33,013 bases of DNA from a virus (Duplodnaviria > Heunggongvirae > Uroviricota > Caudoviricetes). Of this stretch, positions 5,054 to 33,013 are shown one piece after another. The notes beneath the pieces are model-generated. The model had not been told where the DNA came from, searched no databases, and saw nothing but the letters and a program-made list of their open reading frames with translations. The DNA lies in the IMG/VR virus record IMGVR_UViG_3300014846_000073. One strand, written 5' to 3'. The position numbers and the translations under genes are program-made. Position 1 is the first letter of the stretch. Each line of letters opens with the position of its first letter.

Positions 5054-5064
5054 AACAACTCCTT

Positions 5065-6177: not shown

Positions 6178-7238
6178 GCCTGTCGCTCCCAACCAATCTC
6201 TACCGAACTAAAACGAGGCTTTGTAAATTCTACCTGTTGAAAATCAATAGCATCTATTATCGTTTTTTTATGTTCATCGAAACCCCATTCTTGACAATAA
6301 CTATCCTTCGCACGCATAAAAATACTGCGAACATCTTTATGTATGTTAGGGTTAACTATTCTAATTCTTATATTTTCATTGCCATCCAGTAATTGATATT
6401 TAGATAGTGTGTCCAGAATGTAAATAAACTCTAGCTCGTTTTTTCCTTCGCCATTGTAATAAATAATGTAACCATGTTTAAATGTGGTTTCCCATTGTGA
6501 TGTTTCTTCATTGCAATGTCTGACGTCATTATGTTTTATAATAAGGAATGGGCCTGTCAATAATTCTACAGTTGCTGGAAGTTCTTCGGGCGAACCGCTT
6601 ACTTTATGTAGTGAAAGGTCTGGGTAAAAGAATTGATATTTTTTACCGAGTGGAAACTCTCTTTTGTGGCTTAGTTGTGATAAATCGCAGATTATTGACT
6701 GCAGGTAGTTTATAGTTCTTGGTTCAATAATGTGTATTTTTTGACCGGCCCTTACCGGTATATTGTCAAGATTGATACCTCTTTTCTTCTTATCAGTTTC
6801 AGTATTGTGAGACTGATAGAATACATCATAAAAAGATTGGTCAAAGTCTCCGTCATGGTTGTATACAAAGAGCATGCCTCTGACTTCTGACGCACCACTT
6901 TTATAAGAATAACGCTCCTTCCATTCTTTACAACCTTGAGCACAGTCAATAGAATTAGCCAGCGATACTAAAGCATTGCGCATTTTAGTTGCTGTAATTG
7001 AGCCTTTAATATAGCTTTTTAAATCAGTATTTAAAAAAATGGTTCTATTCAAATAGGGATCTTTATAAGAAAATACAACATCAGTTGGATGTGTTCCGGC
7101 TAGTGTTTTATGTTGATCTTTTTTCATGCATGGAAAGTTTTCATTGGTTGGACCAACGAGTTCCCACTTAAACCATTTGAATAGGTCTGAAGATATTTTT
7201 TCTGCCATTGCTGAAATATTTTGAGTTTCACCTGACAT
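6174..7238 (-). CDS. hypothetical protein, first gene of accessory operon (no recognisable domain)
   Basis: 354-aa ORF with ATG at 7238..7236 preceded by an AGGT ribosome-binding site; AT-rich. Confidence 0.6.
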   Translation of the reverse strand: MSGETQNISAMAEKISSDLFKWFKWELVGPTNENFPCMKKDQHKTLAGTHPTDVVFSYKDPYLNRTIFLNTDLKSYIKGSITATKMRNALVSLANSIDCAQGCKEWKERYSYKSGASEVRGMLFVYNHDGDFDQSFYDVFYQSHNTETDKKKRGINLDNIPVRAGQKIHIIEPRTINYLQSIICDLSQLSHKREFPLGKKYQFFYPDLSLHKVSGSPEELPATVELLTGPFLIIKHNDVRHCNEETSQWETTFKHGYIIYYNGEGKNELEFIYILDTLSKYQLLDGNENIRIRIVNPNIHKDVRSIFMRAKDSYCQEWGFDEHKKTIIDAIDFQQVEFTKPRFSSVEIGWERQA

Positions 7239-7495: not shown

Positions 7496-7637
7496 TGCGC
7501 GCTGGCGGTGGTGCTGATTGTATTTTTTCAGCGTCTGAGCGCGTCTTGATGGCGTTTAGATTGTGCGCCGGGGCGTTGGTGTGTCTGCGGGGTGTTTTGT
7601 GCGGTGGTGAGCGTGTGAGGGCGTGATGACGGGGTGT

Positions 7638-7659
7638 AAAAAAGCCGCCCGCAGGCGGC
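7638..7659 (-). terminator. rho-independent terminator immediately downstream of Q
   Basis: GCCGCC / GGCGGC stem with CGCA loop followed by a six-U run on the minus strand, 5 nt after the Q stop codon. Confidence 0.5.
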
Positions 7660-7664
7660 GATGT

Positions 7665-8699
7665 TCAGCCGTTGTCAGTGTCCAGTGAGTAGTTTTTAAA
7701 GCGGATGACCTCCTGGCCGAGCCAGCCGTTTATTTCCCGAATCCTGTCCTGTAACGGGATAAGTTCATTGCGGACAAAGACCTTTGCCACTTTCTCAATA
7801 TCACCCAGCGACCCGACGTTCTCCGGCTTGCCGCCCATCAACTGAAAGGGGATGCGGTGCGCATCCAGCAGGTCAGCGGCGCTGGATTTTTTGATATTAA
7901 AAAAATCGTCCTTCGTTGCCACTTCACTGAGCGGGATAATTTTAATGCCGTCAGCTTTCCCCTGCGGGGCATAGAGAAACAGGTTTTTAAAGTTGTTGCG
8001 GCCTTTCGACTTGACCATGTTTTCGCGGAGCATTTCGATATCGTTGCGATCCTGCACGGCATCGGTGACGTACATGATGTATCCGGCATGTGCGCCGTTT
8101 TCGTAATACTTGCGGCGGAACAGCGTGGCCGACTCATTCAGCCAGGCAGAGTTAAGGGCGCTGAGATATTCCGGCAGGCCGTACAGCTCCTGATTAATAT
8201 CCGGCTCCAGCAGGTGAAACACGGAGCCGGGCGCGAAGGCTGTCGGCTCGTTGAAGGACGGCACCCACCAGTAAACATCCTCTTCCACACCACGGCGGGT
8301 ATATTTTGCCGGTGAGGTTTCCAGCCTGATAACTTTACCGGTGGTGCTGTAACGCTTTTCCAGAAATGCATTACCAAATACCAGAAAATCCAGCACAAAG
8401 CGGCTGAAATCCTGCTGGGAAAGCCATGGATGCGGGATAAATGTCGAGGCCAGAATATTACGTTTGACGTAAATCGGTGAGCTGTGATGCACGGCAGCAC
8501 GCAGGCTTTTTGCCAGACCGGTAAAGCTGACCGGCGGCTCATACCATCTGCCGTTACTGATGCATTCGACGTAATCCAGAATGTCACGGCGGTCGAGCAC
8601 CGGCACCGGCTCACCAAAGGTGAATGCCTCCATTTTCGGGGCGCTGGCAGTCATTTTTTTTGCCGCAGGTTGCGGTGTTTTCCCTTTTTTCTTGCTCAT
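7665..8699 (-). CDS. Q: portal protein
   Basis: 344 aa, MSKKKGKTPQPAAKKMTASAPKMEAFTFGEP...; length and sequence match P2 gpQ; minus strand, next to cos. Confidence 0.9.
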   Translation of the reverse strand: MSKKKGKTPQPAAKKMTASAPKMEAFTFGEPVPVLDRRDILDYVECISNGRWYEPPVSFTGLAKSLRAAVHHSSPIYVKRNILASTFIPHPWLSQQDFSRFVLDFLVFGNAFLEKRYSTTGKVIRLETSPAKYTRRGVEEDVYWWVPSFNEPTAFAPGSVFHLLEPDINQELYGLPEYLSALNSAWLNESATLFRRKYYENGAHAGYIMYVTDAVQDRNDIEMLRENMVKSKGRNNFKNLFLYAPQGKADGIKIIPLSEVATKDDFFNIKKSSAADLLDAHRIPFQLMGGKPENVGSLGDIEKVAKVFVRNELIPLQDRIREINGWLGQEVIRFKNYSLDTDNG

Positions 8700-10471
8700 C
8701 AGTAAAACTCCAGAATGGTGGATGTCAGCGGGGTGCTGATACCGGCGGTGAGTGGCTCATTTAACAGGGCGTGCATGGTCGCCCAGGCGAGGTCGGCGTG
8801 GCTGGCTTCCTCGCTGCGGCTGGCCTCATAGGTGGCGCTGCGTCCGCTGCTGGTCATGGTCTTGCGGATAGCCATAAACGAGCTGGTGATGTCGGTGGCG
8901 CTGACGTCATATTCCAGACAGCCACGACGGATAACGTCTTTTGCCTTGAGCACCATTGCGGTTTTCATTTCCGGTGTGTAGCGGATATCGCGCGCGGCGG
9001 GATAGAACGAGCGCACGAGCTGGAACACGCCGACACCGAGGCCGGTGGCATCAATACCGATGTATTCGACGTTATATTTTTCGGTGAGTTTGCGGATGGA
9101 TTCCGCCTGGGTGGCAAAGTCCATGCCTTTCCACTGGTGACGCTCAAGTATTCTGAATTTGCCACCGGCCACCACCGGCGGTGCCAGTACCACGCATCCG
9201 GCGCTGTCGCCACGGTGTGACGGGTCGTAACCAATCCATACCGGGCGGGAGCCGAACGGATTGGCGGCAAACGGCGCATAGTCTTCCCATTCTTCCAGCG
9301 TGTCGACCATGCAGCGTTGCAGCTCCTCGAACGGGAACACCGATGCCTTGTCGTCAACAAATTCACACATGAACAGGTTTTTAAAATCGTCGGCGCTGTT
9401 TTCGCGTTTGAGCTGCTCAATGTCGAACAGCGTGCAGCCACCTTTCAGGGCGTCCTCAATGGTGACAATCTGCCGCCACTGGCCGTCTGCACAGAGAAGC
9501 CCACCGGCAAGGGCGTTATGACTGACGTCGATTTCCACGCGTTCGGCGGCGCTGGCGCGTCCCCGGTTAAACAGTTCACCCGACCAGAACGGGTAGGCGT
9601 CGTGCGCCAGCGTGGACGGGGTGGAGAAATAGGTCGAACGCAGGTGACTCTGTGAGGCCATACCTGATGCCACCTTACGCAGTACCTGAAAATTCGGGAT
9701 CCAGAAAATCTCGTCGACGTACAGGTCGCCGTTATGGCTCTGTGCGGTGTTGGAGTTGGTGCCGAGAAAAATCAGTTTTGCGCCGTTATTGCCCAGGACA
9801 ATCGGGTCACCGGTCAGGTCAACGTCAACCAGCCGGGCAAAGGCGATGATGTATTCACGGAACACATACGCCTGCGTTTTACTGGCCGACAGAAAAATCT
9901 GGTTATGGCCGGTTTTCAGGGCGCGCAGCAGCGCCTCGCGGGAAAAATAAAACGTCGCGCCAATCTGGCGGGATTTCAGGATATCGCGGATGCGGTGCTC
10001 AAGCCCGGCGCGATACCAGTGCAACTGATATTCGAAAGACTGCTCAAAGAAAATCTGCTCCAGCTTTTCGATAGCCTCGTCGCTGAAAAAATTCTTTTTC
10101 GGTTTGCGCCGCCCGCCTTTGTTGCGGTTAGCGATGTTCGGATTAAGGTCTGCCTCGTTGCCGGTCTGGTTGTAGCGGTTTACCCGTGCCAGTCGTTCAA
10201 TCTGGCGTCCGAGCAGGTCAATTTCCTTGAAGTCACCGCCGGTTTTCTGCGGTTTTATGATGAGCTGGGTCAGCCGCGCTTCCAGACTCATTTCGACACG
10301 GCTGATGGGAGCAACGCTGTCCCAGCCGTCGCGCTGTTTCCAGCTCTGCACCGTCGGGCGTTTCATCTGCAACATGGCGGCAATCTGCGGCACGGAAAAC
10401 CCCTGCCAGTACAGCAGCGCCGCCTGACGACGCGGGTCGTGTAAAAGAGTGGTGTCTGTGGTGATGGTCAT
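8699..10471 (-). CDS. P: terminase large (ATPase) subunit
   Basis: 590 aa from ATG 10471 (MTITTDTTLLHDPRRQAALLYWQGFSVPQIA...) preceded by a GAGG ribosome-binding site; matches P2 gpP; the ORF-track start at 10501 is probably too long. Confidence 0.9.
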   Translation of the reverse strand: MTITTDTTLLHDPRRQAALLYWQGFSVPQIAAMLQMKRPTVQSWKQRDGWDSVAPISRVEMSLEARLTQLIIKPQKTGGDFKEIDLLGRQIERLARVNRYNQTGNEADLNPNIANRNKGGRRKPKKNFFSDEAIEKLEQIFFEQSFEYQLHWYRAGLEHRIRDILKSRQIGATFYFSREALLRALKTGHNQIFLSASKTQAYVFREYIIAFARLVDVDLTGDPIVLGNNGAKLIFLGTNSNTAQSHNGDLYVDEIFWIPNFQVLRKVASGMASQSHLRSTYFSTPSTLAHDAYPFWSGELFNRGRASAAERVEIDVSHNALAGGLLCADGQWRQIVTIEDALKGGCTLFDIEQLKRENSADDFKNLFMCEFVDDKASVFPFEELQRCMVDTLEEWEDYAPFAANPFGSRPVWIGYDPSHRGDSAGCVVLAPPVVAGGKFRILERHQWKGMDFATQAESIRKLTEKYNVEYIGIDATGLGVGVFQLVRSFYPAARDIRYTPEMKTAMVLKAKDVIRRGCLEYDVSATDITSSFMAIRKTMTSSGRSATYEASRSEEASHADLAWATMHALLNEPLTAGISTPLTSTILEFY

Positions 10472-10644
10472 GAATACCTCGCCGTGATGAATACACGGCA
10501 AGGCTACTGAGTCGCGCCCCGCGATTCGCTAAGGTGCTGTTGTGTCAGTGATAAGCCATCCGGGACTGATGGCGGAGGATGCGCATCGTCGGGAAACTGA
10601 TGCCGACATGTGACTCCTCTAATCACTATTCAGGACTCCTGACA
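10472..10644. promoter_or_regulatory. divergent late-promoter region between P and O
   Basis: Intergenic region between divergent late genes; contains a TGT-N12-CAC partial dyad resembling the Ogr-dependent late-promoter element; exact promoter not resolved. Confidence 0.35.
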
Positions 10645-11499
10645 ATGGCAAAAAAAGTCTCAAAATTCTTTCGTATCGGCGTTGAGGGTGACACCTGTGA
10701 CGGGCGTGTCATCAGTGCGCAGGATATTCAGGAAATGGCCGAAACCTTTGACCCGCGAGTCTATGGTTGCCGCATTAACCTGGAACATCTGCGCGGCGTC
10801 CTGCCTGACGGTATTTTTAAGCGTTATGGCGATGTGGTCGAACTGAAGGCCGAAAAGATTGACGATGATTCGGCGCTGAAAGGCAAATGGGCGCTGTTTG
10901 CGAAAATCACCCCGACCGATGACCTTATCGCGATGAACAAGGCCGCGCAGAAGGTCTACACCTCAATGGAAATTCAGCCGAACTTTGCCAACACCGGCAA
11001 ATGTTATCTGGTGGGGCTGGCCGTCACCGATGACCCGGCAAGCCTCGGCACGGAATACCTGGAATTCTGCCGCACGGCAAAACACAACCCTCTGAACCGC
11101 TTCAAATTAAGCCCTGAAAATCTGATTTCAGTGGCAACGCCCGTTGAGCTGGAATTTGAAGACCTGCCTGAAACCGTGTTCACCGCCCTGACCGAAAAGG
11201 TGAAATCCATTTTTGGCCGCAAACAGGCCAGCGATGACGCCCGTCTGAATGACGTGCATGAAGCGGTGACCGCTGTTGCTGAACATGTGCAGGAAAAACT
11301 GAGCGCCACTGAGCAGCGCCTCGCTGAGGTGGAAACCGCCTTTTCCGCACTTAAGCAGGAGGTGACTGACAGGGCGGATGAAACCAGCCAGGCATTCACC
11401 CGCCTGAAAAACAGTCTCGACCACACCGAAAGTCTGACCCAGCAGCGCCGCAGCAAGGCCACCGGTGGTGGCGGTGACGCCCTGATGACGAACTGCTGA
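10645..11499 (+). CDS. O: capsid scaffolding protein
   Basis: 284 aa from internal ATG 10645 (MAKKVSKFFRIGVEGDTCDGRV...), matching P2 gpO; the ORF-track start at 10579 is an upstream in-frame extension. Confidence 0.88.
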   Translation: MAKKVSKFFRIGVEGDTCDGRVISAQDIQEMAETFDPRVYGCRINLEHLRGVLPDGIFKRYGDVVELKAEKIDDDSALKGKWALFAKITPTDDLIAMNKAAQKVYTSMEIQPNFANTGKCYLVGLAVTDDPASLGTEYLEFCRTAKHNPLNRFKLSPENLISVATPVELEFEDLPETVFTALTEKVKSIFGRKQASDDARLNDVHEAVTAVAEHVQEKLSATEQRLAEVETAFSALKQEVTDRADETSQAFTRLKNSLDHTESLTQQRRSKATGGGGDALMTNC

Positions 11500-11557
11500 C
11501 CGGCGTCAGCCAGTCCGGGAAAACCTTCACGATTAACCCTTAATTTCAGGAAAAACT

Positions 11558-12631
11558 ATGCGCCAGGAAACCCGCTTTAAATTTAATGCCTACCTGTCCC
11601 GTGTTGCCGAACTGAACGGCATTGACGCCGGTGATGTGTCGAAAAAATTCACCGTTGAACCTTCGGTCACCCAGACCCTGATGAACACCATGCAGGAGTC
11701 CTCTGACTTTCTGACCCGCATCAACATTGTGCCGGTCAGCGAAATGAAAGGGGAAAAAATTGGTATCGGTGTCACCGGCTCCATCGCCAGCACCACCGAC
11801 ACTGCCGGTGGCACCGAGCGTCAGCCGAAGGACTTCTCGAAGCTGGCGTCAAACAAGTACGAATGCGACCAGATTAACTTCGATTTTTATATCCGCTACA
11901 AAACGCTTGACCTGTGGGCGCGTTATCAGGATTTCCAGCTCCGTGTCCGTAACGCCATTATCAAACGTCAGTCCCTTGATTTCATCATGGCCGGTTTTAA
12001 CGGCGTGAAGCGTGCCGAAACCTCTGACCGCAGCAGCAATCCGATGCTGCAGGATGTGGCGGTCGGCTGGCTGCAGAAATACCGCAATGAAGCCCCGGCG
12101 CGCGTGATGAGCAAGGTCACTGACGAGGAAGGGCACACCACCTCTGAGGTCATCCGCGTGGGTAAGGGCGGTGATTATGCCAGCCTTGATGCACTGGTGA
12201 TGGATGCGACCAACAACCTGATTGAACCGTGGTATCAGGAAGACCCTGACCTTGTGGTGATTGTGGGGCGTCAGCTACTGGCGGACAAGTATTTTCCCAT
12301 CGTCAACAAGGAGCAGGACAACAGCGAAATGCTGGCCGCTGACGTCATCATCAGCCAGAAACGCATCGGCAACCTGCCAGCGGTACGCGTCCCGTACTTC
12401 CCGGCGGATGCGATGCTCATCACGAAGCTGGAAAACCTGTCCATCTACTACATGGATGACAGCCATCGCCGCGTGATTGAGGAAAACCCGAAACTCGACC
12501 GCGTGGAGAACTACGAGTCAATGAACATTGATTACGTGGTGGAGGACTACGCCGTCGGTTGTCTGGTGGAAAAAATTAAGGTCGGTGATTTCTCCACACC
12601 GGCTAAGGCGACCGCAGAGCCGGGAGCGTAA
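11558..12631 (+). CDS. N: major capsid protein
   Basis: 357 aa, MRQETRFKFNAYLSRVAELNGIDAGDVSKKF...; matches P2 gpN in length and sequence. Confidence 0.92.
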   Translation: MRQETRFKFNAYLSRVAELNGIDAGDVSKKFTVEPSVTQTLMNTMQESSDFLTRINIVPVSEMKGEKIGIGVTGSIASTTDTAGGTERQPKDFSKLASNKYECDQINFDFYIRYKTLDLWARYQDFQLRVRNAIIKRQSLDFIMAGFNGVKRAETSDRSSNPMLQDVAVGWLQKYRNEAPARVMSKVTDEEGHTTSEVIRVGKGGDYASLDALVMDATNNLIEPWYQEDPDLVVIVGRQLLADKYFPIVNKEQDNSEMLAADVIISQKRIGNLPAVRVPYFPADAMLITKLENLSIYYMDDSHRRVIEENPKLDRVENYESMNIDYVVEDYAVGCLVEKIKVGDFSTPAKATAEPGA

Positions 12632-12634
12632 CCG

Positions 12635-13378
12635 ATGACGAGTCCCGCACAGCGCCACATGATGCGGGTCTCGGCAGCGATGACCGCGCAGCGGGAAGCC
12701 GCCCCGCTGCGACATGCAACTGTCTATGAGCAGATGCTGGTTAAGCTCGCCGCAGACCAGCGCACACTGAAAGCGATTTATTCAAAAGAGCTGAAGGCCG
12801 CGAAAAAGCGCGAACTGCTGCCGTTCTGGTTGCCGTGGGTGAACGGCGTGCTGGAGCAGGGCAAAGGCGCACAGGATGACATTCTGATGACGGTCATGCT
12901 GTGGCGTCTGGATACCGGCGATATTGCCGGTGCGCTGGAGATTGCCCGTTATGCCCTGAAATACGGTCTGACCATGCCGGGTAAACACCGCCGCACCCCG
13001 CCGTACATGTTCACCGAGGAGGTGGCGCTTGCGGCCATGCGCGCCCACGCGGCCGGTGAGTCTGTGGATACCCGCCTGCTGACGGAGACCCTTGAACTGA
13101 CTGCCGCTGCTGACATGCCTGATGAAGTGCGCGCAAAGCTGCACAAAATCACCGGTCTGTTTCTGCGTGACGGTGGTGATGCCGCCGGTGCGCTGGCTCA
13201 CCTGCAACGTGCGACACAGCTCGACTGTCAGGCAGGCGTCAAAAAAGAGATTGAACGACTGGAGCGGGAGCTGAAACCGAAGCCGGAGCCGCAACCCAAA
13301 GCGGCCACCCGCGCCCCGCGTAAGACCCGGAGCGTGACACCGGCAAAACGTGGACGCCCGAAAAAGAAAGCCAGTTAA
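12635..13378 (+). CDS. M: terminase small (endonuclease) subunit
   Basis: 247 aa; position and length match P2 gpM. Confidence 0.88.
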   Translation: MTSPAQRHMMRVSAAMTAQREAAPLRHATVYEQMLVKLAADQRTLKAIYSKELKAAKKRELLPFWLPWVNGVLEQGKGAQDDILMTVMLWRLDTGDIAGALEIARYALKYGLTMPGKHRRTPPYMFTEEVALAAMRAHAAGESVDTRLLTETLELTAAADMPDEVRAKLHKITGLFLRDGGDAAGALAHLQRATQLDCQAGVKKEIERLERELKPKPEPQPKAATRAPRKTRSVTPAKRGRPKKKAS

Positions 13379-16916: not shown

Positions 16917-17702
16917 TTATGAGTGATTTTTATTTGATGCTTTGTATTCTAAAACCTTCTTATTGGCGTAAAAGAATTTTGTATATGACAGGAATATAAC
17001 CAGACCTGAAGTGAAATAGACGAGGGATAGTATTAATAATGCTTTTTTGTGACTGTTATTATCTTTAATCTCCTGGCTTAACCATTCGGAGTCCTCCTCG
17101 TTTAGCTGTAAGAGCTTATTGCAGGCGATCTCAGGAAGTGTGTCTTTTATAAATACGTTTTGCAGTTTCTTGCAATCGGCAAGGCTATAAGTTTTATTAA
17201 ATTCAACTGCTTTGTTTTTGAAGGATAAAAGAACTTTGTCACTATAAACATAGTACATCATGTTTTTATATGGTATGCCTATGGCATCCCTTACTATAAC
17301 GGATTGTTTGTTGTGTATGTAACATGCGAGGAGAATGTAAAAAATACTGGTCAGAATTACAATTATTGTTTTAATTATGTGTGGTGGTTTTGTTATGTCA
17401 CCCCAGATGCGAGTAAGGAAAAAATACGATGTTTTTAGTTTTCCATCAATCAGTCCCTGCTGTATCATTCTCACATTTTCAATGCCTGATACATTGATTC
17501 CGTTAATTATTTTAAATAGTTGAATGTCGCGCCACTCGCGGTCAAGTCTTTTTAATTTTTTGTCTGAATATCCAAAATTGAAATAATGTGCAATAAGCCT
17601 CATAAGGTTACTTTTACCAAAGCTAAAAAATGCTAATACTGCAAAGCTACAAAGGAAAAAAACGATTAGCCCCCACACATTAGTCACATTATAGCTGACC
17701 AT
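16917..17702 (-). CDS. AT-rich accessory membrane protein (three predicted transmembrane helices), inserted between S and V
   Basis: 261-aa minus-strand ORF with hydrophobic stretches VWGLIVFFLCSFAVLAFFSF, IIKTIIVILTSIFYILLACYI and ALLILSLVYFTSGLVIFLSY; composition and orientation differ from the flanking late genes. Confidence 0.6.
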   Translation of the reverse strand: MVSYNVTNVWGLIVFFLCSFAVLAFFSFGKSNLMRLIAHYFNFGYSDKKLKRLDREWRDIQLFKIINGINVSGIENVRMIQQGLIDGKLKTSYFFLTRIWGDITKPPHIIKTIIVILTSIFYILLACYIHNKQSVIVRDAIGIPYKNMMYYVYSDKVLLSFKNKAVEFNKTYSLADCKKLQNVFIKDTLPEIACNKLLQLNEEDSEWLSQEIKDNNSHKKALLILSLVYFTSGLVIFLSYTKFFYANKKVLEYKASNKNHS

Positions 17703-20211: not shown

Positions 20212-20976
20212 ATGAGCACAAAATTCAGAACCGTTATCACCACTGCTGGTGCAGCAAAGCTGGCAGCGGCAACCGCGCCGGGAGGGCGGAAGGTCAACAT
20301 TACCACGATGGCCGTCGGGGATGGCGGTGGTAAATTGCCTGTCCCGGATGCCGGACAGACCGGGCTTATCCACGAAGTCTGGCGACATGCGCTGAACAAA
20401 ATCAGCCAGGACAAACGAAACAGTAATTATATTATCGCAGAGCTGGTTATTCCGCCGGAGGTGGGCGGTTTCTGGATGCGTGAGCTTGGCCTGTACGATG
20501 ATGCTGGAACGTTAATTGCCGTGGCGAACATGGCTGAAAGTTATAAGCCAGCTCTTGCCGAAGGCTCAGGGCGTTCGCAGACCTGCCGCATGGTCATCAT
20601 CGTCAGCAGTGTGGCCTCAGTGGCGCTGACCATTGACACCACAACGGTGATGGCAACGCAGGATTACGTTGATGACAAAATTGCAGAACATGAACAGTCA
20701 CGACGTCACCCGGACGCCTCGCTGACCGCCAAAGGTTTTACTCAGTTAAGCAGTGCGACCAACAGCACGTCTGAAACGCTCGCCGCAACACCAAAAGCGG
20801 TAAAAGCAGCATATGAACTTGCTAACGGGAAATACACTGCACAGGACGCCACCACCGCGCGAAAAGGCCTTGTCCAGCTCAGTAGCGCCACCAACAGCGA
20901 TTCTGAAACGCTTGCGGCAACGCCAAAAGCGGTGAAGACAGCGTATGGCGCGAAAAGGTCTTGTCCAGCTCAGTAG
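20212..20976 (+). CDS. H: tail fibre protein H, N-terminal part (frame terminates prematurely after a repeat-associated frameshift)
   Basis: 254-aa ORF carrying the conserved N-terminal baseplate-attachment region and the first TLAATPKAVK fibre repeats; ends 30 nt into an out-of-frame stretch. Confidence 0.7.
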   Translation: MSTKFRTVITTAGAAKLAAATAPGGRKVNITTMAVGDGGGKLPVPDAGQTGLIHEVWRHALNKISQDKRNSNYIIAELVIPPEVGGFWMRELGLYDDAGTLIAVANMAESYKPALAEGSGRSQTCRMVIIVSSVASVALTIDTTTVMATQDYVDDKIAEHEQSRRHPDASLTAKGFTQLSSATNSTSETLAATPKAVKAAYELANGKYTAQDATTARKGLVQLSSATNSDSETLAATPKAVKTAYGAKRSCPAQ

Positions 20977-21040
20977 CGCCACCAACAGTGATTCTGAAAC
21001 GCTGGCTGCAACACCAAAAGCGGTGAAGTCTGCCTATGAC
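20737..21040 (+). repeat. three imperfect tandem copies of a tail-fibre repeat (peptide ...LSSATNS.SETLAATPKAVK.AY); copies 2 and 3 are 91 bp apart
   Basis: Copy 2 begins at 20857 and copy 3 at 20948; the 91-bp spacing is not a multiple of three; several nucleotide differences between copies. Confidence 0.75.
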
Positions 21041-22261
21041 AATGCTGAAAAACGTCTTCAGAAAGATCAGAACGGTGCGGATATTCCTGATAAAGGACGC
21101 TTCCTGAGTAACATTAATGTTTACAGCAAAGGTGAAGTGGATAAGAAAAAGGGAATGCGAAAGTATTCGTTTGCAGCCCCTGCAAATGTCGTTGCCGGGA
21201 AGTGGTATCCCGTTATCTTTCGCCGTGCTGCCAGCCTTTCAGGAGAAATGGCATCCCGCGTCGTTATTTCAACTGGTTGTTATAACGGCGATTATGTAAT
21301 GAATAACTGCGAGTTTAATGGCATGGTTATGCCCGGAGGCTGGACCGATCGTGGTTCATATGCGGCAGGTTATTTCTGGACGTATCAGACTAATGAGCGT
21401 TCAATCCATTCCATTGTTACAAGCCTGAAAGATGATGATGTATGTAGTGTTTTTTATGTTGAAGCCAGAGCTTTCCCAGTACAAATTCTTGCAGAGGAAG
21501 GGCTAACGGTTATTGTTCCGACAGAGGATTATGTCGTCGGTCAGACGACATATAAGTGGGGGGCAACTAATCCCGCTACAGAAAGCACGAACGTACAGGC
21601 TATTCTGGATTTTAAAAATGGACGTGGTTATTACTGTTCACATCCATTTATTTCCAGCCTTTCAGGAAATGCTGCAACAGCCTCAAAACTCGAAACACCG
21701 AGGAAAATAGCAGGTGTTGCCTTTGATGGTTCTGGAGATATTACCCTTAATGCCAGAAATGTCGGTGCATTTGCACTTCGGCAGACAGGTAATACGGTTA
21801 ATGGTGATACAGCCGTTGGATGGAATTGGGACAGTGGCGCATACAACGCTCTGATTGGGGGAGCATCTGCATTAATTCTTCACTTTAATATAAATGCTGG
21901 TAGCTGCCCGGCTGTACAGTTTCGTGTGAATTATAAAAATGGCGGTATATCTTACAGGTCAGCCCGTGATGGTTATGGTTTTGAATCTGGCTGGTCTGAT
22001 TTCTATACCACAACACGAAAACCATCAGCGGGAGATGTTGGTGCATACACCAAAGCTGAATCAGATTCTCGCTATGTCCGGGATATTCGCCTGGGCACTC
22101 GTGTTGTTCAGACCATGCAGAAAGGGGTTATGTATGAGAAAGCAGGGCACGTAATTACAGGGCTTGGTATTGTCGGTGAAGTCGATGGTGATGACCCCGC
22201 AGTATTCAGACCGATACAAAAATACATCAATGGCACATGGTATAACGTCGCACAGGTGTAA
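20945..22261 (+). CDS. H: tail fibre protein H, C-terminal part (receptor-binding region), in the +1 frame relative to the N-terminal part
   Basis: 438-aa ORF beginning MARKGLVQLSSATNSDSETLAATPKAVK, i.e. restarting inside the repeat; the distal part is markedly lower in GC. Confidence 0.7.
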   Translation: MARKGLVQLSSATNSDSETLAATPKAVKSAYDNAEKRLQKDQNGADIPDKGRFLSNINVYSKGEVDKKKGMRKYSFAAPANVVAGKWYPVIFRRAASLSGEMASRVVISTGCYNGDYVMNNCEFNGMVMPGGWTDRGSYAAGYFWTYQTNERSIHSIVTSLKDDDVCSVFYVEARAFPVQILAEEGLTVIVPTEDYVVGQTTYKWGATNPATESTNVQAILDFKNGRGYYCSHPFISSLSGNAATASKLETPRKIAGVAFDGSGDITLNARNVGAFALRQTGNTVNGDTAVGWNWDSGAYNALIGGASALILHFNINAGSCPAVQFRVNYKNGGISYRSARDGYGFESGWSDFYTTTRKPSAGDVGAYTKAESDSRYVRDIRLGTRVVQTMQKGVMYEKAGHVITGLGIVGEVDGDDPAVFRPIQKYINGTWYNVAQV

Positions 22262-22264
22262 TTT

Positions 22265-22792
22265 ATGCAGCATTTAAAAAATATTACTGCGGGTAATCCC
22301 AAAACTGTTGCTCAATATCAACTGACAAAAAATTTTGATGTTATCTGGTTATGGTCCGAAGACGGAAAAAACTGGTATGAGGAAGTAAGTAATTTTCAGG
22401 AAGACACGATAAAGATTGTTTACGACGAGAATAATATAATTGTCGGCATCACCCGAGATGCTTCAACGCTTAACCCTGAAGGTTTTAGCGTTGTTGAGGT
22501 TCCTGATATTACTGCCAACCGACGTGCTGATGACTCAGGTAAATGGATGTTTAAGGATGGTGCCGTGATTAAGCGGATTTATACGGCAGACGAACAGCAG
22601 CAACTGGCAGAATCACAAAAGGCAACTTTGCTTTCCGAAGCCGAATCCGTGATTTTGCCGCTGGAACGCGCTGTCAGGCTGAATATGGCGACGGATGAGG
22701 AACGCAGCCGACTGGAAGCATGGGAACGCTACAGCGTTCTGGTCAGTCGTGTGGATCCTGCAAATCCCGAATGGCCGGAAATACCGCAATAA
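22265..22792 (+). CDS. G: tail fibre assembly protein
   Basis: 175 aa immediately downstream of H; size and position match P2 gpG. Confidence 0.85.
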
Positions 22793-23223
22793 GTTGTATG
22801 ATCTCTGGTGTGAGCTTACATATCTATAGCACAGAGTAAAGCCTAATCTGACAGTCCGCTATGTGCCAAAAGCGGACATAACGACACGTTAGTTAGAAAT
22901 CTCAAGACCAATTAGGTTGGATACTTACATGTATACTATTGCCTAACGATACTACCCTATCAACCTCATGGTTTATAGGCGGGGGTGAGAGCCAATCGAA
23001 CGCTATCGTACGTTTTTATGCTGTCTACCCTAGACCCCAAGTAGACATGAATCTTACCTGATTTCCATACGAGGGCGACGTTGATCATCCAGCTTTAGTG
23101 CGAGCACTGAACTTAACATTTACCAGCAATAGTGATATTTTCTACAAAGAAAAATATATGGAATAACGTCATCGCGGGTACAAAAATGACTATAAAAAAA
23201 CATATGTAACACCAACAGAAATA

Positions 23224-24177
23224 GTGAAATATTTTTATGACAAACCGGAAAACGATAACGTAAAAGAGAGAAAAACAATTGAGAGCCTGACCCGTCTCAA
23301 ACCTGAGTGGGAAAATACTCTCGATATGATGAAGTTAATACGCAATTGTGAAAAGCTAGCAACTGAAGGTATTTTAATGGAATTATCTTCAGGACATACT
23401 CTTTTGGACCGTTGCTATTTCGCACCGAATTTCAATGAATCAGATGCGAAATATGGAAAGTATGATTTTATAGCTGATGGATTTGAGTCAATCATAGACC
23501 GCCTTAGTCCTTCCGTTTTACCTGTTGTTGTTGAAAAAAGTGATGGTTCACATGATCTTGGTACTAGTTTTATTGTTGGGAATAACCACACGATATTTAC
23601 AGCCAGACATGTTATTGAAGACATGAAGAGTATCAGGATACTTAGAGCTGGTGGTGAGGCTTTACCAATACATAAAATCTTTGTATCTAACGATGAACGT
23701 ATTGATATCGCTTTAGTTTTCACAACCATTCCGAATGAAGATAATATTCAACCACTTAAGGTCTCAACCAAAGCCTCGGTACTGGATGAAATTTTATCAA
23801 TAGGATTTCCACCCATTCCAGGATTTGATGCATTAAAGTTATATGACGTTTCGCATATAAATTCGTTTGTCCGACTGTCAAAGGGGCGAATTGTTGGTTC
23901 TGGTCACTCTTACTTAGATTCACAAGACTTTTTATTATTCAATGCTAGGGTTAAGGGGGGGAATAGCGGTGGCCCTATAATTAACAAATACGGCTTTGTT
24001 ATTGGTATGCTTGTACAAATACCAATATCATCTGAGGACAGTTCAAAGATTGATAACCTTGGATATGGTATAGCTGTAACAGGAAAAAGCCTGCTGGATG
24101 CTATTACATTTACAGAAAATGGCCGCGAATTAACACTCACCGACCGAGGAAATGGAGAATATTCAACTCTAGCATAA
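23224..24177 (+). CDS. accessory protein with C-terminal trypsin-like (S1 family) serine-protease domain and an N-terminal domain of about 110 aa with no recognisable motif
   Basis: Catalytic-triad context in correct order: FTARHVIED (His), ERIDIALVF (Asp), KGGNSGGPI (Ser, GDSGGP-like). Start is uncertain: the frame opens at GTG 23224 with a weak ribosome-binding site, and the first in-frame ATG is at 23326. Confidence 0.7.
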   Translation: MKYFYDKPENDNVKERKTIESLTRLKPEWENTLDMMKLIRNCEKLATEGILMELSSGHTLLDRCYFAPNFNESDAKYGKYDFIADGFESIIDRLSPSVLPVVVEKSDGSHDLGTSFIVGNNHTIFTARHVIEDMKSIRILRAGGEALPIHKIFVSNDERIDIALVFTTIPNEDNIQPLKVSTKASVLDEILSIGFPPIPGFDALKLYDVSHINSFVRLSKGRIVGSGHSYLDSQDFLLFNARVKGGNSGGPIINKYGFVIGMLVQIPISSEDSSKIDNLGYGIAVTGKSLLDAITFTENGRELTLTDRGNGEYSTLA

Positions 24178-24384
24178 ATGATATTATTAATTAAGTTGTA
24201 CTAACTCAGTTTAAATGAATCAAGCATCCCCGTAACTTTGCCTGAAAAGGCTCATCGAGGGATGCACATTGTACGGATGTGTGAAAACTAAATCGGCTTT
24301 GTCACTTGGATTCGAGGGGAAAACTGAACTGAAAGCGATAAAAACGTCTAAAAAATCGTTTCGCAGACAGATGCACCCGATTCA

Positions 24385-24416
24385 AGCCATTTTGAGGATG
24401 GCTTTCTGCCTTTTAT
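24385..24416 (+). terminator. rho-independent terminator about 200 nt downstream of the protease gene
   Basis: AGCCAT / ATGGCT stem with 7-nt loop, followed by a T-rich tract (TTCTGCCTTTTAT). Confidence 0.4.
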
Positions 24417-24775
24417 ATTTATATTAATCATAAGGTTATTCCATTGGTGTACGATATCGTGCTTTGCCCCTCATCTCCCAGATAACTAATTAGCCTTAAA
24501 ATTACTCATGTGTTTCTGCCGGTTAAAATTATATGGTTTTCATTTACAATAGTCTCAAGTCCGCTCTTCGCTCAAAGCAGACTGTCAGATTTGATAGCGT
24601 TTTGGCTATGTAAATTGTCAGTCGGGAAATAAGTGAGTACAAATCATGACAGGCGGGCGGATTGTCCGCCTTTTCTTTATCTGTTGTTTCATCCACTGAC
24701 CAGCCAGGTCAAATAGCGTCTCATGCTCTGCACAACAGAAAATACCACTCACCCATTAACCACGGAGTTAGACGG

Positions 24776-25966
24776 ATGAGTGACTATCATCACGGCGTGC
24801 AGGTGCTGGAGATTAACGACGGCACCCGCGTCATTTCCACCGTATCCACGGCCATTGTCGGCATGGTCTGCACGGCCAGCGATGCGGATGCGGAAACCTT
24901 CCCCCTCAATAAACCGGTGCTGATTACCAACGTGCAGAGCGCAATTGCAAAGGCCGGTAAAAAAGGCACGCTGGCGGCGTCGTTGCAGGCCATCGCTGAC
25001 CAGTCAAAACCGGTCACCGTTGTCGTGCGCGTGGAAGACGGCAACGGCGATGACGAAGAAACGAAACTTGCGCAGACCGTTTCCAATATCATCGGCACCA
25101 CCGACGAAAACGGTCAGTACACCGGACTGAAAGCCCTGCTGGCGGCGGAGTCGGTAACCGGTGTTAAACCGCGTATTCTCGGTGTGCCGGGACTGGACAC
25201 CAAAGAGGTTGCCGTCGCACTGGCATCAGTCTGTCAGAAGCTGCGCGCTTTCGGGTATATCAGCGCATGGGGCTGTAAGACCATTTCCGAGGTGAAAGCC
25301 TACCGCCAGAATTTCAGCCAGCGTGAGCTGATGGTCATCTGGCCGGATTTCCTCGCATGGGATACGGTCGCCAGTACCACCGCTACCGCGTATGCCACCG
25401 CCCGTGCGCTGGGTCTGCGCGCTAAAATCGACCAGGAGCAGGGCTGGCATAAAACGCTGTCCAACGTCGGGGTGAACGGTGTTACCGGCATCAGCGCGTC
25501 CGTATTCTGGGATTTGCAGGAGTCCGGCACCGATGCTGACCTGCTTAACGAGTCAGGCGTCACAACGCTGATTCGCCGTGACGGTTTCCGCTTCTGGGGT
25601 AACCGTACCTGCTCTGATGACCCGCTGTTCCTCTTTGAAAACTACACCCGCACCGCGCAGGTGCTGGCCGACACGATGGCTGAGGCGCACATGTGGGCGG
25701 TGGACAAGCCCATCACCGCAACGCTGATTCGCGACATCGTTGACGGCATCAATGCCAAATTCCGTGAGCTGAAAACAAACGGCTATATCGTGGATGCGAC
25801 CTGCTGGTTCAGCGAAGAATCCAACGATGCGGAAACCCTCAAGGCCGGAAAACTGTATATCGACTACGACTATACACCGGTGCCTCCTCTTGAAAACCTG
25901 ACCCTGCGCCAGCGTATTACCGATAAATACCTGGCAAATCTGGTCACCTCGGTTAACAGCAATTAA
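24776..25966 (+). CDS. FI: tail sheath protein
   Basis: 396 aa from ATG 24776 (MSDYHHGVQVLEINDGTRVI...) with GGAG ribosome-binding site; the ORF-track start at 24662 is an upstream extension. Confidence 0.9.
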   Translation: MSDYHHGVQVLEINDGTRVISTVSTAIVGMVCTASDADAETFPLNKPVLITNVQSAIAKAGKKGTLAASLQAIADQSKPVTVVVRVEDGNGDDEETKLAQTVSNIIGTTDENGQYTGLKALLAAESVTGVKPRILGVPGLDTKEVAVALASVCQKLRAFGYISAWGCKTISEVKAYRQNFSQRELMVIWPDFLAWDTVASTTATAYATARALGLRAKIDQEQGWHKTLSNVGVNGVTGISASVFWDLQESGTDADLLNESGVTTLIRRDGFRFWGNRTCSDDPLFLFENYTRTAQVLADTMAEAHMWAVDKPITATLIRDIVDGINAKFRELKTNGYIVDATCWFSEESNDAETLKAGKLYIDYDYTPVPPLENLTLRQRITDKYLANLVTSVNSN

Positions 25967-31651: not shown

Positions 31652-33013
31652 TCACTTACCGTGTGGGTTACGCGTGGTTTCCCCGGAGAAATTACGCATC
31701 AGCAGCGCGTAATTTAGCTCAAGATCCTGCGGGACCGGGAGCCACACAGTATAACCATCGCCTGGTGCGACCGGCATCGCTTCACCTTTGGCGTTTTCCA
31801 TGTGCTCAAGGGTAAAGTTAATGTTGCCTTGCGGCGTCATCAGCTCAAGGCTGTCGCCAACGGAGAATTTATTTTTCACCGCTACCGCTGCGAGGTCCCC
31901 CTTGCGCTCACCGGTAAACTCACCAACAAACTGCTGGCGGTCAGAAACTGAATAACCGTATTCGTAGTTCTGATAATCGTCGTGAGTATGACGACGCAGG
32001 AAACCTTCGGTATAGCCACGATGCGCCAGACCTTCCAGAGTTTCCAGCAGGCTGGTATCGAACGGTTTGCCCGCAGCGGCATCATCGATAGCTTTACGAT
32101 AAACCTGTGCGGTGCGTGCGCAATAGTAGAAAGATTTAGTACGGCCTTCGATTTTCAGCGAATGCACGCCCATTTTGGTCAGGCGTTCTACATGGGCGAT
32201 GGCGCGCAGATCTTTCGAGTTCATGATGTAAGTGCCGTGCTCATCTTCAAACGCGGTCATATACTCGCCCGGACGCTGGGCTTCTTCGATCATAAACACT
32301 TTGTCGGTTGGCGCGCCGATACCTAGCGTCGGCTCAACATTTTGCACCGGAATCGGCTCGTACTTGTGTACGATGTTGCCAACGTCATCTTCTTTCCCTT
32401 CCTGGACGTTGTACTCCCAGCGGCAGGCGTTGGTGCAGGTACCCTGGTTCGGATCGCGCTTGTTGATATAGCCAGAGAGCAGGCAGCGACCGGAGTAGGC
32501 CATGCACAGTGCGCCGTGAACGAAGATCTCGATCTCCATATCCGGCACCTGATTGCGGATCTCTTCAATCTCTTCCAGCGACAGCTCGCGAGAGAGGATC
32601 ACGCGGGTCAGGCCCATTTGCTGCCAGAATTTCACCGTCGCCCAGTTTACGGCGTTAGCCTGCACCGAGAGGTGGATCGGCATTTCAGGGAAGTGCTCAC
32701 GCACCAGCATAATCAGCCCTGGATCGGACATAATCAGCGCATCCGGCCCCATTTCCACCACCGGTTTCAGGTCACGGATAAAGGTTTTCAGCTTGGCGTT
32801 GTGCGGTGCAATGTTGACCACGACATAAAACTTTTTCCCCAGCGCGTGGGCTTCATTGATGCCGAGCTGAAGATTTTCGTGGTTGAATTCGTTGTTGCGC
32901 ACACGCAGGGAGTAACGCGGCTGGCCCGCATAAACAGCATCTGCGCCATAAGCGAAAGCGTAACGCATATTTTTCAGCGTTCCCGCCGGGGAAAGGAGTT
33001 CCGGTTTAAACAT
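31652..33013 (-). CDS. yegQ: host peptidase U32-family protein YegQ (tRNA hydroxylation factor TrhP)
   Basis: 453-aa minus-strand ORF starting at the last three bases of the window; length and neighbourhood (next to cyaR and an ogr gene) match E. coli yegQ; GC and codon usage host-like. Confidence 0.8.
   Translation of the reverse strand: MFKPELLSPAGTLKNMRYAFAYGADAVYAGQPRYSLRVRNNEFNHENLQLGINEAHALGKKFYVVVNIAPHNAKLKTFIRDLKPVVEMGPDALIMSDPGLIMLVREHFPEMPIHLSVQANAVNWATVKFWQQMGLTRVILSRELSLEEIEEIRNQVPDMEIEIFVHGALCMAYSGRCLLSGYINKRDPNQGTCTNACRWEYNVQEGKEDDVGNIVHKYEPIPVQNVEPTLGIGAPTDKVFMIEEAQRPGEYMTAFEDEHGTYIMNSKDLRAIAHVERLTKMGVHSLKIEGRTKSFYYCARTAQVYRKAIDDAAAGKPFDTSLLETLEGLAHRGYTEGFLRRHTHDDYQNYEYGYSVSDRQQFVGEFTGERKGDLAAVAVKNKFSVGDSLELMTPQGNINFTLEHMENAKGEAMPVAPGDGYTVWLPVPQDLELNYALLMRNFSGETTRNPHGK

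What the first reader, a model, noticed from the sequence alone, without database searches (positions are those of the whole stretch)
22793..24775. Protease-containing island at the P2 Z/fun position between G and FI
A roughly 2 kb AT-rich insert (about 37% GC in a sampled line) sits between tail-fibre assembly gene G and tail-sheath gene FI, where P2 carries the T5-exclusion locus Z/fun. Its only long ORF (317 aa) has a complete chymotrypsin-fold catalytic triad in the right order and context (TARHV..., DIALV..., GGNSGGP) behind an N-terminal region of about 110 aa with no recognisable motif. This suggests a sensor domain fused to a protease effector, as in protease-based abortive-infection proteins. 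The ORF has no ATG start with a good ribosome-binding site (it opens at GTG 23224), and it is flanked by about 430 and 600 bp of non-coding DNA.
Basis: partly seen in the sequence, partly recalled or inferred. Interest (0 to 1): 0.8.

Follow-up and report, generated by a model that had tools for sequence, protein, structure and literature searches.

The report
Frameshifted solitary protease in P2 hotspot
A P2-like prophage of E. coli carries, at the spot where phage P2 keeps its T5-exclusion gene, a mobile cassette for an uncharacterised stand-alone serine protease that is a plausible but untested anti-phage gene, and the copy in this window has lost its normal start codon through a one-base deletion in a run of A's.

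Summary
An AT-rich insert lies between tail genes G and FI at the P2 fun(Z) position. Its only supported gene is a chymotrypsin-fold serine protease whose His/Asp/Ser triad is invariant in 110 homologues.

Three points need correction:
- The missing ATG is a lesion. The window has A7 at 23194-23200. All 41 complete E. coli genomes and 10 IMG/VR contigs with this cassette have A8, which gives an ATG-started 330-aa protein. A7 is a real circulating allele (14 independent assemblies), not a sequencing error.
- The N-terminal region folds as a winged helix. It occurs only in front of this protease, so it is not a shuffled sensor module.
- The variable cassette is 1,681 bp (22878-24558). It sits between the inverted repeats of the P2 Z-region and has a conserved promoter of its own.

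The gene is always solitary, rare and patchily distributed. It is under purifying selection and turns up in prophage hotspots, islands next to defence genes, and plasmids. It matches no PADLOC system beyond the protease domain, and I found no paper on it.

Best reading: an uncharacterised single-gene, protease-based defence or exclusion candidate, attenuated or inactive in this window. Function is inferred, not shown.

The parts
22265..22792 (+). P2 gene G (tail-fibre assembly); left anchor of the hotspot
   Evidence: ORF. Annotated as tail fiber assembly protein in the near-identical E. coli 789 prophage.
22845..22877 (.). Left arm of the Z-region inverted repeat. Homology to P2 ends at 22877.
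   Evidence: The arms are 33 nt and 85% complementary to 24559-24591. The arm lies inside the 'left inverted repeat' annotated in P2-EC46/EC67 records. P2 breakpoint.
22878..24558 (+). Variable cassette (1,681 bp, low GC) that replaces P2's terminator plus fun(Z)
   Evidence: The same cassette is 99% identical in a second genomic context, L002.
23113..23141 (+). Promoter-like site TTAACA-17 nt-TATTTT with TG upstream of the -10
   Evidence: Consensus scan. The block stays conserved in about 80%-identical homologues L010 and L011 while the surrounding DNA diverges. Promoter activity not tested.
23186..23209 (+). Stranded original start: ATG ACT ATA AAA AAA CAT ATG TAA, 7 codons, out of frame with the protease ORF
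   Evidence: In A8 relatives this ATG starts the 330-aa CDS.
23194..23200 (+). A7 homopolymer (A8 in relatives); site of the 1-nt deletion. It is an in-register A_AAA_AAA heptamer.
23224..24177 (+). 317-aa ORF from GTG, equal to residues 14-330 of the family protein
   Evidence: This exact protein is on record (WP_266264502.1 is among its accessions).
23224..23436 (+). Winged-helix-fold N-domain (residues 14-84 in 330-aa numbering); its first helix is truncated in this allele
23437..23520 (+). Helical linker with the family signature Y-G-x-Y-D-F-x3-G-F (residues 85-112)
   Evidence: Y90, G91 and G99 are conserved in 94-100% of 110 sequences. Helices 85-110 in the model.
23521..24081 (+). S1C (HtrA-like) protease domain. 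His 23608-23610, Asp 23704-23706, Ser 23965-23967.
   Evidence: Pfam. Foldseek against PDB finds DegS/DegP/DegQ at E about 1e-12. Triad invariant.
24082..24177 (+). C-terminal tail of about 30 aa (two short helices and a beta-hairpin) plus the stop codon; no PDZ domain
   Evidence: It is the least conserved region.
24224..24265 (+). Hairpin GCATCCC...GGGATGC, 47 nt after the stop
   Evidence: Read. The stem is retained in L011. Role unknown.
24384..24404 (+). Weak terminator-like hairpin inside the cassette
24559..24591 (.). Right arm of the Z-region inverted repeat. Homology to P2 resumes at 24560.
24592..24775 (+). Conserved P2 backbone upstream of FI, with a strong terminator-like hairpin at 24651-24671. 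By homology it includes the F-operon promoter region.
   Evidence: About 90% identical to P2 17433-17975. Hairpin. P2 annotation.
24776..25966 (+). FI tail sheath gene; right anchor of the hotspot

Best explanation
The insert is a 1.68-kb mobile cassette in the P2 fun(Z) hotspot. It is bracketed by the Z-region inverted repeats and carries one gene with its own promoter.

The product is most likely cytoplasmic, since it has no hydrophobic N-terminus. It has two domains: a family-specific winged-helix N-domain packed against an HtrA-like S1C protease with an intact His-Asp-Ser triad. It has no PDZ domain and no partner gene.

The most likely function (inferred) is a self-contained, prophage-encoded anti-phage or exclusion protease. 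The N-domain would take the regulatory place of the PDZ domain of HtrA proteases and hold the enzyme inactive until an infection cue, probably a protein rather than DNA. The protease would then cleave host or phage proteins and abort or block the infection.

In this window the gene carries a natural 1-nt deletion (A8 to A7) at codons 3-6. The ATG now reads a 7-codon dead end. Protein can arise only from the weak GTG at 23224 (317 aa, lacking part of helix 1) or from a -1 slip on A_AAA_AAA, which would restore the exact 330-aa sequence. This copy is therefore attenuated or off.

Shown: anatomy, fold, conservation, solitary state, mobility and the frameshift. Inferred: defence role, regulation by the N-domain, and the expression consequences.
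For: Position and borders:
- P2 has a terminator plus fun(Z) between the same breakpoints.
- Inverted repeat.

Protease:
- Trypsin_2 E 2.4e-17.
- Triad invariant in 110 sequences.
- Full-length AlphaFold2 model has pLDDT 89.5 and pTM 0.88.
- DegS/DegP/DegQ are the top PDB matches.

N-domain:
- Winged-helix fold.
- Found only with this protease.
- Mean net charge is -1.7, with no conserved basic helix.

Selection:
- dN/dS is 0.07-0.11 for the protease domain and 0.18-0.23 for the N-domain.

Solitary:
- No neighbour family is shared by more than 3 of 32 loci.

Mobile and accessory, sometimes beside defence genes:
- P2 hotspot in 13 complete genomes, and a decayed P2/P4 island with a reverse transcriptase (RT), DUF2971 and DUF4236 in 28.
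- HEPN_AbiU2 plus DUF4238 plus a primase.
- HEPN_LA2681 plus RT.
- Klebsiella IncF plasmids beside IS3 and a toxin-antitoxin pair.
- Only 32 loci among 185,579 species representatives, with a pattern-limited scan.

The same prophage carries a known defence system (Hp1-3) at its other hotspot. P2 hotspots are documented sources of defence systems (PMC9122126; PMC13586616; bioRxiv 10.1101/2024.10.15.618418).

Frameshift.
Against: - No phenotype is known. PADLOC gives only protease-domain hits.
- Some homologues sit among housekeeping genes, in Nitrospina and Pedobacter.
- None of 50,697 sequenced phage records encodes a homologue at E 1e-10 or better, so carriage by viable phages is unproven.
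- The N-domain shows no domain shuffling, which is the usual mark of defence sensors.
- Rousset et al. tested a different 'Peptidase + TM' P2 system. It is not among the three additional P2-hotspot systems for which they report defence.
- I could not inspect model coordinates, so autoinhibition by the N-domain is conjecture.
- The window's copy may make no functional protein.
Confidence: 0.5

Rival explanations
1. The cassette is a prophage 'moron' with a role other than defence. Examples would be regulatory proteolysis that benefits the lysogen, a counter-defence protease that protects P2, or a factor acting on competing mobile elements or plasmids.
For: - P2 hotspots also carry cargo unrelated to defence, such as plasmid-partition genes and cytolethal distending toxin (PMC9122126).
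- The gene also sits on IncF plasmids and in ordinary chromosomal neighbourhoods.
- The N-domain is not shared with any known defence protein.
Against: - Several contexts are next to HEPN, RT or DUF4238 genes.
- There is no signal peptide-like N-terminus, so a secreted virulence role is unlikely (sequence read directly).
- No partner or substrate gene is linked to it.
Confidence: 0.2
2. In this window the gene is simply a fresh pseudogene. The A7 deletion abolishes expression, and the cassette is a decaying passenger in a prophage that is itself defective.
For: - The ATG frame ends after 7 codons. Neither start has a good Shine-Dalgarno sequence.
- The GTG used by the 317-aa ORF is GTA in relatives.
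- There is no stimulatory RNA structure downstream of the slippery site; z = 0.07.
- The same prophage has a frameshifted tail-fibre gene H.
Against: - The rest of the gene is identical over 975 nt to the intact E. coli 789 allele.
- A_AAA_AAA is in register, and a -1 slip restores the exact protein.
- The A7 allele is widespread, and other A7 prophages keep H intact.

This reading is compatible with the best explanation for the gene family.
Confidence: 0.4
3. The A-run is a contingency (phase-variation) switch, or a programmed frameshift site, that tunes expression of a costly protease.
For: - The A7/A8 polymorphism lies at codons 3-6.
- 317-aa protein records exist on four allele backgrounds (P0122, P0127, P0129, P0132) that match alleles 0, 3, 5 and 1. 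Contig counts in the cluster listing are about 71 against about 372.
- The slippery heptamer is in register.
Against: - The tract is not conserved. Klebsiella has an in-frame A7 through ATT, L010 has A6, and L011 has none.
- All 41 complete genomes have A8.
- There is no stimulatory structure.
- I saw DNA for only one A7 lineage.
- Recurrent loss in an 8-nt run is expected for any dispensable or toxic gene.
Confidence: 0.12
4. The A7 run is a sequencing or assembly error, and the window really encodes the 330-aa protein.
For: Homopolymer errors are common on some sequencing platforms. All RefSeq complete genomes have A8.
Against: - Ten loci from NCBI, ENA and Logan assemblies and four metagenome contigs all carry A7.
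- It is the only indel in 12 kb of 99.5%-identical alignment to E. coli 789.
Confidence: 0.03
5. It is a housekeeping cytoplasmic quality-control protease that happens to sit in a prophage.
For: The fold is HtrA-like. The neighbours in Nitrospina and Pedobacter are housekeeping genes.
Against: - Only 158 clusters among 1.84 billion representatives, and 32 loci among 185,579 species representatives.
- Present in 41 of 5,426 E. coli genomes.
- Low GC, and cassette-like transfer between prophage, island and plasmid.
Confidence: 0.05

Closest known systems
HtrA/DegS/DegP family (MEROPS S1C) serine proteases
   Same: Both have the chymotrypsin double-barrel fold with the His-Asp-Ser triad and a GNSGGP oxyanion motif. 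They are the best structural matches, at E about 1e-12. A low-confidence loop directly before the oxyanion motif lies where I recall HtrA's L3 sensor loop to be (the comparison rests on my own knowledge).
   Different: This protein has no PDZ domain and no signal peptide or membrane anchor. Its N-terminal winged-helix domain is unique to the family. NCBIfam DegP/DegS/DegQ models score 21-46 bits against cutoffs of 408-756. Sequence identity is about 20%.
P2 Fun(Z), the T5-exclusion gene at the same locus
   Same: Both occupy the identical position between G and FI, within the same breakpoints. Both are non-essential lysogenic-conversion type cargo.
   Different: There is no sequence similarity; BLASTP E = 8. 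Fun(Z) is 528 aa on the opposite strand.
Protease-bearing defence proteins in PADLOC (retron/RT-Protease type XI, Lamassu LmuA-protease, Hachiman HamA-protease, PDC-M35A)
   Same: The trypsin-like domains are related, at E 5e-13 to 3e-7. The setting is a mobile element.
   Different: Matches cover only the protease domain. The RT, LmuA/HamA core domains and the partner genes are absent.
Trypsin-like protease plus proenzyme effector modules (trypsin-MBL, Pepco and others; PMC12799240, PMC12642450, bioRxiv 10.1101/2025.09.03.673762)
   Same: A trypsin-like protease serves as the executing part of an immune system.
   Different: Those proteases activate an adjacent effector and are fused to or paired with sensors such as Avs or Hachiman. 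Here there is no linked effector or sensor gene in 32 loci.
Lit protease of prophage e14 (from my own knowledge)
   Same: It is a single prophage-encoded protease that aborts infection when triggered by a phage product. This is the functional model proposed here.
   Different: Lit is a zinc metalloprotease with a known target, EF-Tu. There is no homology, and no trigger or target is known here. Not tested.

Membership tests
Peptidase S1 / Pfam Trypsin_2 | Profile score above the curated cutoff | tested here: met
   64.5 bits against 27.6; E 2.4e-17
Peptidase S1 / Pfam Trypsin_2 | His, Asp and Ser triad in that order, conserved in homologues | tested here: met
   H142, D174 and S261 are invariant in 110 sequences
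Peptidase S1 / Pfam Trypsin_2 | Chymotrypsin-type double beta-barrel fold | tested here: met
   AlphaFold2 pLDDT 89.5; Foldseek probability 1.00 to DegS/DegP
HtrA (DegP/DegQ/DegS) proper | One or more C-terminal PDZ domains | tested here: not met
   No PDZ hit in Pfam. Only a tail of about 30 aa follows the protease domain.
HtrA (DegP/DegQ/DegS) proper | NCBIfam equivalog or subfamily score above cutoff | tested here: not met
   21-46 bits against cutoffs of 408-756
HtrA (DegP/DegQ/DegS) proper | Export signal or membrane anchor (periplasmic location) | tested here: inconclusive
   No hydrophobic N-terminal stretch in the E. coli protein or in the family consensus. No signal-peptide predictor was available.
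P2 Z/fun hotspot cargo | Lies between G and FI at the P2 fun(Z) breakpoints | tested here: met
P2 Z/fun hotspot cargo | Flanked by the Z-region left and right inverted repeats | tested here: met
P2 Z/fun hotspot cargo | Homology to Fun(Z) itself | tested here: not met
   BLASTP E = 8
Known PADLOC defence systems | Full-length match to a system protein, with the system's partner genes present | tested here: not met
   Only protease-domain matches. No conserved neighbours. DefenseFinder and newer PADLOC releases were not available.
Protease-proenzyme effector modules (trypsin-MBL and others) | Adjacent co-evolving effector gene | tested here: not met
   No neighbour family occurs in more than 3 of 32 loci
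Anti-phage defence system (functional class) | Protection against phage on expression, dependent on catalytic residues | not testable with these tools
   No experiment was possible, and none was found in the papers searched.
Anti-phage defence system (functional class) | Enrichment next to known defence genes | tested here: inconclusive
   About 6 of 11 inspected contexts are hotspots, islands or plasmids with defence-type or toxin-antitoxin neighbours. The rest have no defence-type neighbours, and 2 are clearly housekeeping. No statistical score was computed.
Programmed -1 ribosomal frameshift site | X_XXY_YYZ heptamer in register, giving a meaningful product | tested here: met
   A_AAA_AAA at 23194-23200; the slip product equals the 330-aa protein
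Programmed -1 ribosomal frameshift site | Stimulatory element and conservation of the arrangement in homologues | tested here: not met
   No downstream structure; z = 0.07. Most copies seen are in-frame A8, and the tract is absent or different in relatives.
Phase-variable contingency gene | Tract-length polymorphism among isolates at a 5' coding homopolymer | tested here: met
   A7 against A8. 317-aa records exist on four allele backgrounds, although I saw DNA for only one.
Phase-variable contingency gene | Reversible switching within a clonal population | not testable with these tools
   Needs deep sequencing of lysogen cultures

The most novel reading that the evidence does not exclude
The winged-helix-plus-S1C protein is a new single-gene abortive-infection or exclusion system. 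Its family-specific winged-helix domain would replace the PDZ sensor of HtrA proteases and recognise a phage protein. In E. coli, its expression would be toggled by slippage of the A8 run at codons 3-6, with A7 acting as an 'off or low' state that can still leak full-length enzyme through a -1 slip. That would make it a contingency-switched immune gene in a prophage hotspot.
Probability: 0.1. Interest if true: 0.7.

Novelty: new variant of a known kind. Interest (0 to 1): 0.45.

Why it matters
The fun(Z) hotspot of P2-like prophages has been explored much less than the old/tin hotspot. In P4 hotspots, randomly chosen unknown genes proved defensive in 6 of 8 tests (PMC13586616).

A solitary 330-aa protease with no partner gene would be one of the simplest protease-based immune modules. 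It would be a tractable system for asking how an HtrA-type protease can be gated by a non-PDZ domain and what it cleaves.

The practical lesson is that the window's copy is the wrong one to clone. The A8 allele, for example from E. coli 789, is the intact gene. The A7/A8 pair also gives a ready-made natural control.

Tried and rejected
- **Hidden RNA or small gene in the flanks.** Rfam gave no hit at E 1 or better. Fold z-scores were -0.6 to -1.5. The flank segments 22878-23102 and 24265-24558 occur only with this cassette, in 41 genomes. They are not conserved in 80%-identical homologues. I did not search the 40-aa and 52-aa ORFs for homologues.
- **N-domain as a shuffled sensor.** Rejected.
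- **N-domain as a DNA binder.** Disfavoured by charge and by the lack of a conserved basic helix.
- **Conserved partner gene.** None found.
- **Membership of a PADLOC system.** No.
- **Homologues in sequenced phages.** None. BFVD has no viral protein with the two-domain fold; TM-score normalised to query length is 0.5 or less.
- **Literature.**
  - Rousset 2022, the DefensePredictor paper, Vassallo 2022, the 2026 NAR P2/P4 paper and the domain-centric paper do not mention this protein.
  - Full-text searches for three of its accessions (WP_044502276, WP_000152899, WP_034169312) found nothing.
  - Rousset's 'Peptidase + TM' system (pFR104) is a different two-gene locus.
- **Nilsson et al. 2004** on the Z-region repeats is not held.
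  - DNA for the other 317-aa records.
  - The A8 pattern scan of IMG/VR.
  - afdb50.
- **Sequencing error for A7.** Rejected.
Full report
**1. The observation**

Gene G (tail-fibre assembly) ends at 22792 and FI (tail sheath) starts at 24776. GC falls to 0.35-0.40 between about 23000 and 24650, against 0.54-0.61 in the tail genes. The only long ORF is 23224-24177, 317 aa, with a GTG start.

The ORF matches Pfam Trypsin_2 at E 2.4e-17, which is 64.5 bits against a cutoff of 27.6. The catalytic codons are His 23608-23610, Asp 23704-23706 and Ser 23965-23967. The window is a stretch of E. coli chromosome. The ORF at 31652-33013 on the minus strand is yegQ, and the prophage sits between yegQ and yegR as in E. 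coli 789.

**2. Exact borders**

Alignment to the P2 reference AF063097 shows that homology stops at window 22877 and resumes at 24560. Between those points P2 carries a terminator and fun(Z), which is on the minus strand, encodes 528 aa and is annotated as blocking T5. The position claim is therefore exact. The protease has no similarity to Fun(Z).

The breakpoints coincide with a 33-nt inverted repeat, 22845-22877 and 24559-24591, that is 85% complementary. The arms fall within the 'left/right inverted repeat' features annotated in the P2-EC46 and P2-EC67 Z-region records. The true insert is 22878-24558, 1,681 bp.

**3. The missing ATG is a frameshift**

PHROG 18002 is a 330-position profile, and the window's ORF matches positions 14-330 of it. 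The window has A7 at 23194-23200. E. coli 789 has a cassette that is otherwise 100% identical, has A8, and is annotated with a 330-aa 'S1 family peptidase' starting at the ATG that corresponds to window 23186.

- All 41 RefSeq complete E. coli genomes with the cassette have the extra base.
- All 10 IMG/VR contigs have it too.
- In the window the ATG frame reads MTIKKHM-stop.

The deletion is not a sequencing error. It is the only indel in 12 kb of 99.5%-identical alignment to strain 789. The exact 317-aa protein is on record, with WP_266264502.1 among its accessions, and is listed in 59 blocks of the collection's index. Ten loci fetched from NCBI, ENA and Logan assemblies and four metagenome contigs all carry A7.

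Three further 317-aa records (P0127, P0129, P0132) match other allele backgrounds, which suggests the event recurs. I could not fetch their DNA.

A_AAA_AAA is an in-register slippery heptamer, and a -1 slip reproduces the 330-aa protein exactly. However, there is no stimulatory structure downstream. The tract is not conserved, and the GTG is GTA in relatives. I read this as a mutable site, not a programmed one.

**4. The protein**

A search of 5.8 billion proteins returned 230 relatives. Nearly all are 310-350 aa and align over their full length at 30-57% identity. They come from Pseudomonas, Nitrospina, Bacteroidota and Nostoc among others.

In a 110-sequence alignment H142, D174 and S261 are invariant. 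So is most of the G-Y-P-P-I-P-G-F signature at 207-214; G207, P209 and F214 are strictly invariant. The motif K-G-G-N-S-G-G-P at 257-264 is likewise conserved.

The AlphaFold2 model is confident, with pLDDT 89.5 and pTM 0.88. The protease domain matches DegS, DegP, DegQ, MucD and AlgW at E about 1e-12. There is no PDZ domain, and the NCBIfam HtrA models score far below their cutoffs.

Both parts are under purifying selection. dN/dS is 0.07-0.11 for the protease and 0.18-0.23 for the N-domain.

**5. Is the N-domain a modular sensor?**

An HMM of the N-domain was searched against 1.84 billion representative proteins and found only 158 proteins. Essentially all have the domain at the N-terminus of a roughly 330-aa protein. 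The longer outliers contain nothing beyond Trypsin_2. The two domains form an obligate pair, so this is not the shuffled sensor-effector architecture typical of defence proteins.

**6. Context**

The gene is solitary. Clustering of neighbours within 4 kb across 32 loci found no family shared by more than three loci.

The contexts seen were:
- intact P2-like prophages, in 13 complete genomes;
- a decayed P2/P4 island at tRNA-Thr with a partial G gene, DUF2971, DUF4236, an RT and psu, in 28 genomes;
- a rearranged P2-like element with GAPS4 at the old/tin site;
- a Pseudomonas element with a DUF927/Toprim primase, HEPN_AbiU2 and DUF4238;
- a contig with HEPN_LA2681 and an RT;
- Klebsiella IncF plasmids, beside IS3 and a GNAT/DUF1778 toxin-antitoxin pair;
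- plain housekeeping surroundings in Nitrospina and Pedobacter.

Distribution is sparse. The cassette is in 41 of 5,426 E. coli genomes, and the family is in 32 of 185,579 species representatives by a pattern-limited scan. No sequenced phage in 50,697 records carries a homologue.

A promoter-like site at 23113-23141 stays conserved in 80%-identical homologues while the flanking DNA diverges. The rest of the flanks shows no Rfam match, no unusual folding and no conservation beyond the recent cassette.

**7. What it most likely does**

The anatomy, fold, conservation, solitary state and mobility are shown. The function is inferred.

By position in a documented hotspot (PMC9122126; bioRxiv 10.1101/2024.10.15.618418; PMC13586616), by its company and by its patchy spread, the best guess is a self-contained prophage-encoded anti-phage or exclusion protease. 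The winged-helix domain would take the regulatory place of HtrA's PDZ domain.

PADLOC recognises only the protease domain, with hits to RT-Protease_XI, LmuA, HamA and PDC-M35A. I found no paper on the protein. Protease-effector pair models (PMC12799240, PMC12642450) do not apply, because no effector gene is linked.

In this window the copy is attenuated or dead.

**8. Verdict**

This is a real and correctly located feature, and a reasonable but untested defence candidate. It is a new variant among protease-based candidates rather than a new category. Interest is moderate.

Noticed in passing
window 20212-22261: Tail-fibre gene H is split into two overlapping ORFs, 20212-20976 and 20945-22261. 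The span is 2,050 nt, which is not a multiple of 3. It lacks 173 nt found in the 2,223-nt H of E. coli 789, and the break is at a 132-nt internal repeat. Other A7 prophages keep a 740-aa H. The prophage may be defective, or the repeat may have collapsed in assembly.
   Followed up: partly
window 4382-7238 (minus strand): The old/tin hotspot carries three genes that match PADLOC Hp3, Hp2 and Hp1 at E 6e-8, 3.7e-37 and 1.7e-63. I take these models to be the three-gene '3HP' system of Rousset et al. None has a Pfam hit. The prophage therefore has a recognised defence system at its other hotspot.
   Followed up: partly
window 16917-17702 (minus strand): A 261-aa ORF on the opposite strand lies between the S-like and V-like genes, at what I recall as the P2 orf30 position. 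It has no Pfam or PADLOC match and is annotated 'hypothetical protein' in E. coli 789. It may be a third accessory locus.
   Followed up: partly
window 22858-22877; L013 1615-1634; L010 5764-5783; L002 8001-8020 and 9703-9722: The inner 20 nt of the inverted repeat, GCTATGTGCCAAAAGCGGAC, recurs in three other settings. It sits between the two cassettes of P2-EC46, at the cassette ends in the non-P2 island, and at the edge of a variable region just after a LysR-family gene on an unidentified Logan contig (1 mismatch). This may mark a recombination site for cassette exchange. The mechanism is unknown.
   Followed up: partly
window 31652-33013 (minus strand): This ORF is the host gene yegQ. The window is a chromosomal segment with the prophage integrated between yegQ and yegR, not a free phage genome.
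   Followed up: yes
L011 (Logan ERR119408 contig), 7596-12599: In a rearranged P2-like element, an 82%-identical protease gene lies between an inverted tail-fibre assembly gene and a tail-fibre gene, next to a resolvase/invertase. GAPS4-type genes sit at the old/tin site.
   Followed up: no
L076 (Klebsiella michiganensis plasmid NZ_CP029143.1), 6962-7954: An 86%-identical 330-aa homologue sits on IncFIA/IncFII plasmids, beside an IS3 transposase and a GNAT/DUF1778 toxin-antitoxin pair. Its lysine codons give an in-frame A7 run (ATT AAA AAA ACA).
   Followed up: partly
window 13281: There is a 6-nt in-frame insertion (GCCGGA) relative to E. coli 789, inside the ORF 12635-13378 that corresponds to the terminase endonuclease subunit gene.
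   Followed up: no
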